Assembly: GCF_001186125.1 (NCBI RefSeq)
Contig: NW_014040143.1
Span: 1 to 35,989, forward strand
Direction: 5' to 3'
Source of the DNA: Sphaeroforma arctica JP610
Taxonomy: Eukaryota
DNA: 35,989 nt
Shown: in pieces, positions 16,736 to 27,900 of the stretch
Position numbering within the stretch: the first letter of the stretch is position 1
Layout of the letters: each line of letters begins with the position of its first letter
The notes under the pieces: model-generated
The model's database searches: none
Told to the model about the DNA's origin: nothing
Seen by the model: the letters and a program-made list of their open reading frames with translations, nothing else
Made by a program: the position numbers and the translations under genes

Positions 16736-19700
16736 TTAACTCGAGCAACTGATGCACATTCGTAATGAAGAGGCGTGTCTGTTGGAGAGTGCAGGATAGA
16801 GAATGGCTGTAATTGAGCACCCTTGCCATGATAATATTCTTCAGCCAAACGTGCACGATTGTATGGCTAGAACCAGTTACATTCGAAAAGCTGTAAAGAG
16901 CTGATTCCGAATAATTGCAAATTGCACGCACCTGTCATATTTCAATGATTCATATTGTTCCCACTCGTCGAAAGGACGACTCAGAATTTTGGTCAACGTT
17001 TGCAATTCAGTGAAATCTCCCAGCTGCAATCGAACGAGTTATGAAAGTATCATCGACATGTCCAGATGTGTTATTGCATGGCTTTGGTTTTATGGGTGAG
17101 AACAAGCAATATGGACAGTAAATGCAGTTAGAGAGAAATCTCACATATCGAGCCCAATATTGCAATTGTGTCGGATATTCACAAATGCGGAGATGAACAA
17201 CAAACCAAGCTGTCGACGAAAGTTTTCGGCGTGGAATGCCACTTTTCACCGTGTAAATTTTACACGAGAACCAAAACTATCGCGGTCGGGCAGACATAGT
17301 ACCATACAAACAAGATATATTGAGCACGCATGAGGTTATAGCCAGGTCTACCTTCGAATCTACAAATAGTTGTATAAAACAAGCAAATCACACATGAACA
17401 CAAGTTCCAACAAAGCACACGCTCAACCATATGGCTATCATGCAGATTAGAGACTGCACAAGAATTGATATATAAGTCATCGCTACACTCCTATATATAG
17501 ATTACCCTCCAATTGACAGAGTCCACCTACATATGAACACAAATTTTCGCTTCAACAAACTCACCTTTGCCTTTTCGAAGGCACTCTGCGCCATATAATT
17601 TCTTAGACAGAACTTAGGATTTGTCGTGTTCATGATGGTGACTCGCTGCGTGTTGTACTCAGTCAGAGTCGCGCCAGAGGCTTCGGCCAGTTTCCAATCA
17701 TCATTTACATACGATTGGTACTGTTTCAGCCACGCGGCCCATTTAGCTCTGTCCTCATCATCCTTTTGGAACGGCGAAACGGCGGCCAGACGCTTTGCAC
17801 GTGCCACTGACTCCATTCTTTGCTTGAAGTAGTCAACGTGCTTGCCTATGCGAATGTAGATTGTGAGTAGCTGGTGTGAACAAGAGATTGCATATCCGGA
17901 AACGTACGAAGTATTGGGTTGATATCCAAACATTCTCACCGACCCAAATGACAAGCCAAATAATTGATGAAACAGCAATTTAAATTAACAAAATTTATTA
18001 TTATGTAAATAATATGAAGTAAAACTCCATTTTGACTGTACGGTTTCTTTTCCGAGAGAAATTGTGCTGTATCAATAAATCCACAACATTACCTAAACAC
18101 GCGGCACCTGCATTCTCCCATATCCAATGAGCCGTACACACATATTCAACTGGACAAACACCAACACAAAGTACATAAATGTCAATATAGATTGTTCATT
18201 CTGCATACCTGTTAGTGCCAGTAGCACATCGTCGTGTTCTACTGGGAATGTAGACAACACCTTAAGGTATTCTACCTCGTATGGCATTGTATTGGCCATT
18301 TCTCGACCGTCATCTAACTGTGACACTATGTAGTCCAACACATTTTCTCTCGAGCTAAGTGATTCCGGGCTTTCAGGTCCATCTGTGAGCATTCGATTTG
18401 CATATTAGATGAATGATGCGATTTCGTACTTCGACAGGACATGAGCGTGCAAAATGCATCCAATTGTAGAATTGAGCTATCATCCTGATTCCGAACACCG
18501 TGAGCTGCCAGAAGCACAAAACTAATACCTCGCTTCTAGAAAAGTTGCACGATGTGGATATCAGCCTTCAGACAACTATGAAATGAATGATATTTGTAAT
18601 CGCCAATCTTGTACCGTCAGTACGGAGTCTTCAAAACAACAACACACAGCACTAGACGATAACGAGAAGACATAGAAAACGAACCTTCGTGAGCTACAAT
18701 GTTCGACAGGCATCTGAAAGTGTTGGTAAAATCCGCCCCCGTCTCCTCCATGGTCTGCATCATTCTGCTGATGAGCTTCTCGTCATTGTCGTAGATGGCG
18801 TCTGCACGAATGTACGGAAAACAAATCAAAACATTAGCTACATACGTTTTTTGTCGACATTATATAAAGGCCTTGTCCTATGAACAGATGGTAGAGTCCG
18901 TTGCAAGTGACTTATAGACACTGTCACAACGGGATAGGATAGACACTTCTCGCACAAAAATAGTACAACAGACAAACAAGAAGAAAACAATACACGCCCC
19001 CCTCCCCCCCCGCCCAAACCATACCATCTAACACATCGGCATCTGCAAAAGCAGTTTTAGATGTCGATGCGGAGTTTTTCTTTGCCTGGGGTACTTTCAG
19101 TGAGCTGGAATCCACCTTCCCACTATCTTCGTTGACCCCGTTTGTTCCTGCAGAGGCATTTTTCTTTTCTGCCTGTTGAGTGGCGGCTTTTCTCTTCTTC
19201 ATATCACGGCCCACCATACCCCACTTGCGCATCACGATGGAGTGAAAGTGGTCCACGTACACTGGCCAGAAAACCTAAAGGGCACGTGTATTGAGAGGAG
19301 AGGGTCATTAGAATACGGTGCATATACCAGGTGAAGATAGACAATATGTGGTACAGCAGCGAGATAGCAAGATGTAATGGAAAGTAAGTCAAAATAATGA
19401 CTGCACACGTTGATTTTTATGGTACACACATGCACATTCTAGTAAACAAGTAATATGAGGAGGTATTCGGATAGTGCGAATTTTATGAGCGGACAAAGAT
19501 CATGTTCGATTGCAACAGGCTCGTGCGTATTCACATTGCAAGCAAGAGAACTTAGTCATATTCATGGGATACCAAAGGCACCCACTCGTATAGCACTAAC
19601 ATGTGATACTTACCTGATTTAATTTAGCAATCAATTCATCCAGAGGCACGACACCTGAGATCGCCTTTGCCAGCTTACCAAGTCCCCAGTATATCATTTT

Positions 19701-24900: not shown

Positions 24901-27900
24901 GCCAAATGTGACGGGCTATGAAATCACTTCATCCGATGTTTATACGCAATGCAGTAATGCAACAATGGTGGCGGGTAGACGGTAAAACTCAAGGAATGAT
25001 GTTCACAAGGGTGCGAGCAATAGGAAATACAACACTACTTTAAGCATAGTCCGTACCGATAGCAACTGCCGTGAAACTGCACACATACATTGTGCCGCGC
25101 TTATAGCTATAACACTCACCTGGGGTAGTCTACCCAGTTTTTCGGCGACCCCTTCGATATCCGACAGCTGAGTTTGTGCCGCCTGCTCGGACATCCCAGA
25201 GCGCGTGACCAAGAACTCTACCGCAGAGTCCAAGGCCACCACATCCAACTTCAACTTTAGATCCTTACCATTGCCATTCAGGCTGATCTCATTCCATCGA
25301 CTGCAAGCAAGCGGGGTGGTGAGGGGGTTGATGCCGGTGAGAAGTGAGTGGGGAAGTTTCAAACAAGGATGAATAGGTGCTTCTAATCCTGAAAACGAAA
25401 ACAAAAACAAAAAACTGAAGGTACATAGGACGTGGACTTATATACACCTGCAAGTCACACCCACACTACACTGAAGCTATATAAGTAGCTAGACGCTATG
25501 TTACCAATGTCTCCCTGGCACCCAGAGAAGAATGGCAGCACCAAAGCCTCTTCCACACAGCACTTACACATACACGTGCAACACTTTGCGGCCTGATTTG
25601 TTCGAAATCAAACAAGAAGTATAAGGTGCTTTCAAACACGCTAGCATGTCAATAGCAATATCACCACAGCCCAACCAGTAGATAACGAGGTATAAGGGGA
25701 AGCAGACAGCGATAACACATACAATAGAAAATCCTCTGCACACCGTGACTGCACAGAGTTCAGAAGGTACAAAACGAATAAACGTCCTTAAATTACTCCC
25801 GATGAATAATAGCCTGTCATCCACAGCGTTCGAACTGGAACAGGGGCAAGATACGCTGTAGAGATCAGTTTGCTGATAGAGCACGCGAATACAGCCAATC
25901 TCCGAAGAAACACACCTAGACACCAGAACACTGCCACTACTGCTGATAGGGTGCAGCAAATCGAAGATATGCTCAGCACCTATGGCATTCACATTGTCGA
26001 CGACTATGAGCCATTGACCTTTGTTCGCGAAGAACCACTTGTACAGGATGTGTTCGATGATCTGCGCATTGCTCGCATCATCGGGAGCTGTGGGGACCAG
26101 AAAGTGAGTATGGGTTTATTAGTATAAGGCGATACAGAAGTGACGCATGTGCATATGTGAGAATGATAGAGGACTGATTACTATGAACCCGGACAAGAGG
26201 CAATTCGCATGTGACAGAAAAACGAATTAACAACAGCAATTTATGGTGCAAGTCAGATACACACAGCAGATCAAATCCTCACACAAATGCATACCTCTGA
26301 GGGAAAGTGTTTTGGATACAACACCACAAAAAAGAAGAAAAAAGAAGAAGAAAAAGAAGACACAATCGATTGGTCGGAAGCTTCATTCATGCGAATTAAG
26401 CGTGTCCAACGCGTAACCCTCGCAGACACCTAAGCAAACAAATCCCACAAATGCACACGAAGCATATTCACAGCATTGACTGCAGGATATAAACATGCCG
26501 TAGAGCACATGCTGATGTATCGAGTGGCTTCAGCACATTTACGGATACTAATTCGGGCTATTGGGGAGGCCTAGTCATATGGACATATCTGCCACACATC
26601 GTGTAGCAAACAAACATACTCTTCCAAACCAAAGTTAGCAGCCCATCGTAGCAAACATTTTCACCAGCACGGACACATCAGAGACAACCTTCATCACCCA
26701 CACGCACGCATCCCACAAAAAAAAACAAAAAAAACATGCACTTTAATCTCAGATACACATATGCATACAGTACAAACACGCAAATATACCGCACTAGGCC
26801 ATACGAATACAGACAATATAACCCTCACATACTCTGCAGTTCCAGATAGGCCGGACTAGCGAATCCAGCAAAGGCCGTCTCGCACTCTGTGCGCGTGGTC
26901 AAACCCGAACAGTCCAGCCACAGCGTCACCCGATACGCTGCCGCGTTTCCATTGCGCTCGCGCTCAAAGAGTTCCCACAGGTAGCGTGCACAGAACACAG
27001 TCTTGCCCACACCCGCCATGCCGGTCAGCAACACCACGCCACCACTAAATATTTTAGAATGGTTTTGAGGCAATTGTGTGTTTGCATTCTACAACTCCAC
27101 TTAAACATATGTATGGGTGTACGAGTGCGTATTATTCCAAGGAGTAGGCCAGTATGGGTAGGCAGAATTCCGTGTATAGGATCAGTATGAATGTATGCAT
27201 GAGTATGAGAGGGGTCAATGGATAAGCGCAGATGCGTGTTGGCTTCAAACTTTGTAAATGTGTTCGAAAGTGATGTATCATAGGTAATTCGCCAGAAAAC
27301 TGCCGGCGCTTAAAAGTAGCAGAACTTAAACCCTCCAGCACAATTCAACGAACCCAGAAAGAAATAGACAAATTTCTGTATACACGCTTCTAGAATACAT
27401 GTGTCAACACTTGCAATATTGACTAAACAACAGTGATGCGCATATATTGCGTATAAACAATTGCAAGTGGTACTAATTCGGTGCACTCAAACTATTCGAC
27501 AGTCTATGAGCCTTGGCAGGCCAAAACCATTCATTCGCAAACCAGTCAATTTCTCTCTCCCTTACTTACCAGGTATGGCTGTCAAAGTACTTGCACACTT
27601 GTTGAAAATCCAATTCTCTGTGTCTGAAAGTGACCATCTGGGGTCGCTTTGATCGGATAGGTAAACACACAATCCCGTTCTGATTACTCTTCCGAATCTC
27701 AGTAAGTCCACCCTGTCATTACAAGCGATGGGTGGAGCAAACACATCGGGATTTAGAAGAATTCTCCGTACTTGTACAACCGAGGAAACAGCATAGTACG
27801 TCTATGATGTACATAATCCAGATGCGATCCATCCTATCAGTCCCCTCGGATACCAGACACAACAGGAAGATAGTAAAATGTATCGAAAAGATATAAAAAT

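What the first reader, a model, noticed from the sequence alone, without database searches (positions are those of the whole stretch)
16736..27712. Candidate NLR-type STAND NTPase fused to a SelO/YdiU AMPylase
Seen: NB-ARC exons with all hallmark motifs run on the same strand directly into a complete SelO domain. Bridge: exon 22732-22600 (ends phase 1), exon 22455-22267 (189 nt, stop-free, ends GAAC|gtatgt, phase 1), then acceptor ccatctccatcacag|AG at 21977, in frame with SelO (..[23 protein letters not shown]..). Two other AGs (exon starts 22037, 22082) are also in frame. Established: STAND/NB-ARC domains are nucleotide-gated oligomerisation switches in immunity and cell-death signalling; SelO is a pseudokinase-fold protein AMPylase, normally stand-alone and mitochondrial in eukaryotes. 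I do not know of a described NB-ARC-SelO architecture, but I could not search. Inference: a switch-controlled AMPylation system, i.e. an NLR-like receptor with an AMPylase as effector or as integrated decoy/redox sensor.
Basis: partly seen in the sequence, partly recalled or inferred. Interest (0 to 1): 0.92.

Follow-up and report, generated by a model that had tools for sequence, protein, structure and literature searches.

The report
NLR-like switch fused to SelO enzyme
A single-celled relative of animals has one spliced gene joining an immune-receptor-type ATP switch to the AMP-transferring enzyme SelO, and the enzyme likely acts as the switch's sensor for a predicted nuclear regulator, a pairing our literature searches did not find.

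Summary
The fusion is real. Spliced contigs join 22267 to 21977 across a GT-AG intron in 6 of 6 RNA-like runs laid (4 studies; one with only 30 nt on the short side). The DNA control run does not show the join. Public Sphaeroforma arctica annotation splits it (SARC_06034-06036); Creolimax has it fused (CFRG2126T1, 1765 aa). Architecture: Q-rich disordered region, a conserved basic domain of no known family (83% identical), an NB-ARC core like bacterial TIR-NB-ARC-TPR proteins, arm, one TPR-like remnant, then SelO with intact catalytic residues and the C-terminal CSS tail. SelO therefore sits where relatives carry the TPR sensor, and the missed N-terminal domain sits in the effector slot. Best reading (0.4, inferred): SelO is the input that trips the switch and the N-terminus is a nuclear output. 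Close rival (0.3): the switch gates SelO's AMPylase/NADase output. Strong conservation and purifying selection argue against a fast-evolving immune receptor. No paper searched describes it. No function was tested; the N-domain fold failed.

The parts
16736..33725 (-). Whole coding span: 28 exons, 27 GT-AG introns, one 1870-aa open frame
   Evidence: 26 joins plus one loose end; model; splice sites
32628..33725 (-). Exon 1, aa 1-366: Q-rich low-complexity region (41% Q in aa 1-100) with one short conserved acidic/hydrophobic patch (aa ~200-245)
   Evidence: junction from loose end; 26% identity to Creolimax over aa 1-385, 64% in aa 201-250
29466..30528 (-). Exons 30528-30352, 30070-29882, 29567-29466 (aa 367-522): basic (pI ~10), likely helical domain of no known family, aa ~388-525, with NLS-like basic clusters at 388, 470 and 528
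   Evidence: 83% identical to Creolimax; pI; basic clusters; no family; fold failed
27570..28650 (-). Exons 28650-28437, 28158-28031, 27712-27570 (aa 523-683): second conserved block (aa 545-580, 92%) and lead-in to the NBD
26833..27044 (-). NB-ARC exon with Walker A GMAGVGKT (aa 692-699)
25120..26087 (-). Exons 26087-25916 and 25300-25120: Walker B WLIVVDN (780), sensor-1 SSR (R813), GxP motif GRLPQAL (868)
23627..24727 (-). Exons 24727-24582, 24293-24155, 23776-23627: helical domain and winged helix with the MHD-equivalent MHP (H1012)
   Evidence: (DUF7779, E 0.0019, below cut-off)
22267..23318 (-). Exons 23318-23142, 22732-22600, 22455-22267: arm (LIPH motif), one TPR-like remnant with an invariant 24-residue stretch, then a ~40-aa variable linker
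   Evidence: 85% identity to Creolimax over aa 1018-1155, 43% in the linker
21978..22266 (-). Bridge intron (289 nt, GT-AG); holds the read-through stop at 22259 and the intronic ATG 22098 used by the split public annotation
16736..21977 (-). SelO domain, 12 exons, aa ~1190-1870: K1323, E1346, R1393, R1400, N1483, D1492 intact; C-terminus CISCSS; activation-loop Cys replaced by P1508
   Evidence: Pfam PF02696 E 2.6e-97; alignment to YdiU/SelO structures; motif positions
16511..16735 (-). 3' UTR covered by RNA-like contigs (ends 16511-16535)
   Evidence: table 8

Best explanation
This is one 1870-aa protein in which an intact NB-ARC switch is fused to an intact SelO domain, and SelO likely serves as the switch's sensor while a Q-rich, basic N-terminal region is predicted to be its nuclear output. 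Shown: the spliced fusion, the domain order, intact motifs, conservation in Creolimax, purifying selection. From established STAND biology: the core rests ADP-bound and closed, held by arm and sensor; an inducer opens it, ATP binds and it oligomerises. Inferred: SelO replaced the TPR array of a TIR-NB-ARC-TPR-like ancestor after the first repeat and now reports ATP/NAD+/thiol state through its active site and C-terminal CxxC-SS tail, possibly by AMPylating the switch or a partner. Inferred: opening clusters the basic N-terminal domain and Q-rich region on DNA or chromatin to change transcription, as in MalT/PH0952-type one-component regulators.
For: Slot homology: model aa ~667-1102 aligns continuously with bacterial NB-ARC-TPR proteins through arm and first TPR helix (FxSxx_TPR E 4e-22); their N-terminal slot holds a TIR-like effector (recognised by recalled motif), their C-terminal slot the TPR array. 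STANDs typically have an N-terminal effector and C-terminal ligand-binding domain (PMC4986451 passages); PH0952 has a putative N-terminal DNA-binding effector with a TPR sensor (PMC6468293 passages). The N-terminal domain is more conserved (83%) than NB-ARC (70%) or SelO (72%), basic (K+R 24 vs D+E 14), and carries NLS-like clusters. Neither possible N-terminus looks like a mitochondrial presequence (K+R 1-2, D+E 2 in 40 aa). 31 synonymous vs 9 non-synonymous changes in the 40 of 75 rows shown, against 77% non-synonymous expected.
Against: SelO keeps every catalytic residue checked and the CSS tail, which fits an output enzyme equally well. STAND effectors may lie at either end, as in MalT (PMC6468293). 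The N-terminal domain has no family or fold; DNA binding and nuclear location rest only on charge, short basic motifs and Q-richness. The only leads for it point to cell-death modules instead (MLKL_N-like, score 0.81; RIPK1 death domain, E 0.69), both at chance level. The STAND-SelO linker is poorly conserved (43%), which also fits loosely coupled domains.
Confidence: 0.4

Rival explanations
1. Switch-gated enzyme: the STAND keeps SelO off and releases it on activation to AMPylate cytosolic/nuclear targets or hydrolyse NAD+, replacing the TIR NADase that its bacterial kin use.
For: Catalytic residues and CISCSS tail intact. A commentary reports that SelO hydrolyses NAD+ and needs the CSS tail (PMC13391479, whole text; primary paper not read). 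Effectors can be C-terminal. The activation-loop Cys of the known regulatory disulphide (PMC8097203) is lost in both species, which would leave room for another brake. The fused SelO has a long stem branch (1.0-1.1).
Against: It leaves no clear sensor, since the TPR array is gone, and does not explain the highly conserved N-terminal domain. Loss of the loop Cys is not special: 15 of 68 other SelO hits with that loop also lack it.
Confidence: 0.3
2. Loose fusion: the two halves work independently, and a SelO-only product (internal start or cleavage) does the ordinary mitochondrial job.
For: Variable linker. An in-frame intronic ATG at 22098 with an open 52-codon run. X11 has an intron-covering contig 21948-22220 at depth 4, and SelO-side contigs are deeper than upstream ones in X9 and X11. 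No second ichthyosporean SelO was among the 120 of 138 hits listed.
Against: Other introns also have depth ~2 contigs (X3, X11), so this may be pre-mRNA; 3' bias explains the depth step; X3, X4, X5 and X10 give single unbranched contigs. The intronic N-terminus is not presequence-like. The fusion is kept across two genera.
Confidence: 0.17
3. Immune NLR with an integrated domain: SelO is a bait or guard for parasite effectors, and the N-terminal domain is an MLKL-like or death-like executor.
For: NB-ARC fold closest to Apaf-1, CED-4 and plant resistosomes. Atlas leads to MLKL_N clusters (0.81; 9 of 10 best named hits share family or clan). Weak RIPK1 death-domain match.
Against: Both leads are at chance level by the tools' own calibration. 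A pore-forming four-helix bundle behind 385 disordered residues would be unusual (own knowledge). Fungal NLRs are polymorphic with birth-and-death evolution (PMC4986451); this gene is 70-85% conserved across genera, under purifying selection, and no paralogue appeared.
Confidence: 0.1

Closest known systems
Bacterial/archaeal TIR-NB-ARC-TPR STANDs (FxSxx_TPR-like, NF040586; P0133, P0134, loci L002-L079)
   Same: NB-ARC core, winged helix, arm with LLPH-type motif and first TPR helix align continuously at about 20-27% identity; all switch motifs correspond.
   Different: TIR slot holds a Q-rich region plus an unknown basic domain; TPR array is replaced by SelO; score 78.5 vs cut-off 300; spliced eukaryotic gene.
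SelO/YdiU protein adenylyltransferases (PF02696)
   Same: Full domain with catalytic K, E, R, R, N, D and C-terminal CxxC-SS; about 40-43% identity to the closest stand-alone SelOs over 574 columns.
   Different: Fused behind ~1190 aa; no presequence-like N-terminus; Cys rather than Sec; activation-loop Cys absent; long branch. Grouping with animal SelO is neither recovered nor rejected (AU p 0.145).
MalT / PH0952 / AfsR STAND transcription regulators
   Same: STAND core with arm, TPR-derived region and a (putative) DNA-binding effector at one end (PMC6468293 passages; AfsR seen in search listing only).
   Different: Prokaryotic, with HTH/SARP domains and full TPR sensors; none known to carry SelO. 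Here DNA binding is only inferred.
Apaf-1/CED-4 and plant/fungal NLRs, including integrated-domain NLRs
   Same: Same NB-ARC fold (Foldseek E 2e-9 to Apaf-1; VIA Z 13.7-15.1 for the top rows). A non-canonical domain after the core resembles integrated domains (recalled).
   Different: No LRR/WD40/ANK/TPR array, no recognised CARD/TIR/CC/HeLo, strong conservation, and an intact-looking enzyme in the C-terminal slot.

Membership tests
STAND NTPase, NB-ARC type | NB-ARC domain above Pfam cut-off | tested here: met
   PF00931 30.8 and 31.9 bits vs 23.5
STAND NTPase, NB-ARC type | Walker A, Walker B, sensor-1 Arg, GxP, winged-helix His | tested here: met
   All align to residues conserved in 36-39 of 39 bacterial rows; GLPL Leu is Gln
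STAND NTPase, NB-ARC type | NBD-HD-WHD-arm fold | tested here: met
   Model mostly pLDDT 70-96 over P0121 aa 230-600; best matches Apaf-1, NRC, CED-4; alignment was seeded with bacterial STANDs
STAND NTPase, NB-ARC type | ADP/ATP exchange and inducer-driven oligomerisation | not testable with these tools
   needs biochemistry
NLR immune receptors | C-terminal superstructure-forming repeat sensor | tested here: not met
   No repeat family in Pfam; only one TPR-like remnant before SelO
NLR immune receptors | Recognised N-terminal signalling/executor domain (TIR, CARD/death, CC, HeLo/MLKL) | tested here: inconclusive
   No Pfam hit; MLKL_N lead 0.81; RIPK1 DD E 0.69; fold failed, pLDDT 32
NLR immune receptors | Rapid diversification and paralogue expansion | tested here: inconclusive
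   Purifying selection and 70-85% identity across genera argue against; paralogues could not be counted, as no genome is held
FxSxx_TPR (NF040586) | Whole-protein score above cut-off, with TPR array | tested here: not met
   78.5 and 63.4 bits vs 300; only profile positions 5-372 of 830 match
SelO/YdiU AMPylases | PF02696 pseudokinase domain | tested here: met
   327-332 bits vs 22.8; E 1e-73 to YdiU structures
SelO/YdiU AMPylases | Catalytic Lys, Glu, two Arg, Asn, DFG-like Asp | tested here: met
   K1323, E1346, R1393, R1400, N1483, D1492 by alignment; roles of the Arg, Asn and Asp from PMC8097203 passages, Lys and Glu recalled
SelO/YdiU AMPylases | C-terminal Cys/Sec-Ser-Ser tail | tested here: met
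   CISCSS in both species
SelO/YdiU AMPylases | Activation-loop Cys (E. coli C272) for the regulatory disulphide | tested here: not met
   Pro/Ser at that position; also absent in 15 of 68 other hits, so not universal
SelO/YdiU AMPylases | Stand-alone, mitochondrial in eukaryotes | tested here: not met
   Fused; N-termini lack presequence-like charge by a crude count only
SelO/YdiU AMPylases | AMP transfer or NAD+ hydrolysis activity | not testable with these tools
   needs assay
STAND transcription regulators (MalT/PH0952) | DNA-binding effector domain | tested here: inconclusive
   Basic conserved domain but no family or fold match

The most novel reading that the evidence does not exclude
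Ichthyosporeans built a one-component eukaryotic regulator in which an active SelO reads NAD+/ATP/thiol state outside mitochondria and toggles an Apaf-1-like switch by AMPylation, driving a previously unknown DNA-binding domain. It would be the first STAND wired to a SelO-family enzyme and the first non-mitochondrial eukaryotic SelO.
Probability: 0.25. Interest if true: 0.9.

Novelty: new variant of a known kind. Interest (0 to 1): 0.72.

Why it matters
Both parts are well studied but have not been linked in the papers searched: STAND switches run cell death, immunity and some bacterial transcription; SelO is a redox-linked AMPylase and reported NADase, normally stand-alone and mitochondrial. 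A conserved, expressed fusion in culturable unicellular relatives of animals offers a direct test of whether AMPylation or NAD+ turnover can be the input or output of an NLR-type switch, and of what such switches do in single cells apart from immunity. It also yields a new conserved domain and corrects a public annotation that splits one gene into at least three.

Tried and rejected
No genome is held, so a stand-alone SelO paralogue and STAND paralogues could not be counted. Two separate genes: rejected by spliced joins and the Creolimax protein. Folding the N-terminal domain with 7 rows gave pLDDT 32; its fold search gave best Z 4.7, uninformative. Pfam and PHROGs scans of it gave nothing credible; PADLOC gave only weak P-loop hits. 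In the exhaustive search 2 of 7 hits, P0127 (TPR repeats) and P0130 (repeat lipoprotein-like), were judged chance; the TPR-like spacing in P0127's match breaks in the Sphaeroforma sequence. The metagenome scan for loci near the junction returned 1 locus of 79 pattern matches, a bacterial contig with a 31-residue, 42% match, judged spurious; the environmental relatives' contigs could not be read, so fusion beyond two genera is untested. The complex prediction of arm/TPR region with SelO was not available, so there is no result. No listed run is on record as RNA; the join evidence rests on spliced contigs, which show neither transcript starts nor single molecules. The SelO tree left placement unresolved (48 sequences, 22 near-redundant rows skipped by hand, fragments under 500 aa dropped, no named bacterial outgroup). 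68 of 70 fetched bacterial STAND ORFs look TIR-bearing, but they were fetched with a TIR-bearing query, so that count is circular. Rfam gave only microsatellite artefacts below cut-off. Three look-ups of earlier findings returned nothing.
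Full report
Observation. No genome is held, so the junction was tested with public runs. Of 21 runs listed, seven were laid: six RNA-like (X3, X4, X5, X9, X10, X11; four studies) and one DNA-like (X12). All six RNA-like runs have a contig joining 22267 to 21977 across a 289-nt GT-AG intron, with 133-185 nt on the short side in five and 30 nt in X11. 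X12 runs through unspliced with no difference. The other in-frame acceptors (22082, 22043, 22037) appear in no join row. X3, X4, X5 and X10 each give one contig of 5.8-6.0 kb that spans both domains. Contigs do not prove single molecules, and their RNA status is the tool's guess, but the joins fall on GT-AG introns throughout.

Gene model. The 26 joins plus one loose end give 28 exons and one 1870-aa frame from ATG 33725 to the stop at 16738-16736. Three public Sphaeroforma arctica proteins match the model letter for letter over 638, 104 and 686 residues (SARC_06036, 06035, 06034), so the public annotation splits the gene. Creolimax fragrantissima CFRG2126T1 is one 1765-aa protein with the same order and both Pfam domains; it is a gene model whose own support I could not check. 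It was the only protein over 816 aa among the 120 of 138 SelO hits listed (194-2000 aa, word-based search). Single-exon fragments from unnamed assemblies match the N-terminal domain and the TPR-like remnant, so further relatives exist, but their fusion state is unknown.

Anatomy. Residues 1-385 are Q/S/G-rich and 26% identical to Creolimax, apart from one conserved acidic/hydrophobic patch. Residues 388-525 are 83% identical and 545-580 are 92% identical; the domain is basic (pI ~10) and flanked by NLS-like clusters. It has no Pfam or credible PHROG family, and an exhaustive HMMER search of 1.84 billion representatives gave 7 hits: 5 kin and 2 judged chance. Its fold prediction failed. Atlas leads to MLKL_N (0.81-0.82) and a RIPK1 death-domain match (E 0.69) are at chance level.

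The STAND core (aa ~684-1017, 70% identical) passes the NB-ARC cut-off. Its nearest sequences found are prokaryotic NB-ARC-TPR proteins. Walker A, Walker B, sensor-1 Arg, GxP and the winged-helix His align to residues kept in 36-39 of 39 bacterial rows. The predicted fold matches Apaf-1, CED-4 and plant NLRs. The alignment continues through the arm and the first TPR helix, to about aa 1102, and then stops; this segment is 85% identical across genera, with 24 residues invariant in all four sequences aligned. After a 40-aa variable linker comes SelO (72% identical), with K1323, E1346, R1393, R1400, N1483, D1492 and the CISCSS tail. The activation-loop Cys that forms the regulatory disulphide (PMC8097203, passages) is Pro or Ser, as in 15 of 68 other hits. 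The fused SelO lies on a long stem among eukaryote-type sequences; grouping with animals is not rejected (p-AU 0.145, few replicates). Differences in X10/X11 are 31 synonymous and 9 non-synonymous among the 40 of 75 rows shown, against 77% non-synonymous expected (rows were chosen by the tool as best supported, no transition correction).

Mechanism. STANDs rest closed on ADP, held by arm and sensor, and oligomerise on ATP; the sensor follows the arm and effectors lie at either end (PMC6468293, passages). In the usual NLR layout the effector is N-terminal (PMC4986451, passages). Here SelO follows the arm in place of the TPR array, and the N-terminal slot holds the best-conserved, basic, Q-rich-flanked domain. 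I therefore favour SelO as input and the N-terminus as a nuclear output (0.4). Every functional step is inferred. A loose fusion with a SelO-only product (0.17) is not excluded: there is an intronic in-frame ATG and a depth-4 intron contig in X11, though other introns show similar low cover and the resulting N-terminus is not presequence-like. A classical immune NLR (0.1) fits poorly with the conservation.

Novelty. Searches of the held library found no paper with SelO and NB-ARC, Creolimax and NB-ARC, Sphaeroforma and SelO, or YdiU and STAND NTPase. Searches listed 5, 3 and 1 papers; by listing none concerns this protein, and only the last was opened (passages). The library lacks most subscription papers, supplements were not searched, and no InterPro architecture search was possible. 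Both domains are known families, so this is a new variant of a known kind: a STAND with an enzyme of the SelO family where the repeat sensor belongs, plus an unclassified domain. It fails NLR and FxSxx_TPR membership on the repeat array while still being built like a STAND switch.

Verdict. Observation confirmed and extended; fusion about 0.97 certain; interpretation partly supported; mechanism open between sensor and effector; interest 0.72.

Noticed in passing
window 25713-25787 (intron 9): A 75-nt stretch occurs at a second genomic place (DNA run X12 gives it at double depth with branching contigs) and inside another RNA-like contig; no Rfam match, folding z -1.1. Probably a short shared repeat.
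   Followed up: partly
window ~6671-12728: Decayed Ty1/copia-like retrotransposon on the minus strand: RVT_2 hit E 4e-19 at 7524-8027, RNase H-like frame at 6861-7301 (recognised by eye), zinc-knuckle repeats near 11100-11900 with an N gap, and 86-89% direct repeats at 6671-6854 and 12526-12728.
   Followed up: partly
window 76-2287: Three tandem near-identical copies (95-99%) of an open frame of no Pfam family, spaced about 600-700 nt.
   Followed up: no
window 5023-5316: Exact 147-nt tandem duplication inside a frame with weak LRR-like hits below cut-off; could be an assembly artefact.
   Followed up: no
window 30528-32628: First intron is 2.1 kb, far longer than the others (144-815 nt), and largely TA/TG microsatellite.
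   Followed up: no
P0131/P0132 (unnamed JGI records): Exon fragments of a more distant relative of the N-terminal domain lie on contigs up to 19,209 bp, long enough to show whether SelO follows; the contig could not be fetched.
   Followed up: partly
window 22600-22732: The invariant stretch in the TPR-like remnant and its flank hold three Cys in Sphaeroforma and Creolimax, a possible partner for SelO's C-terminal Cys now that the activation-loop Cys is gone (speculation).
   Followed up: no
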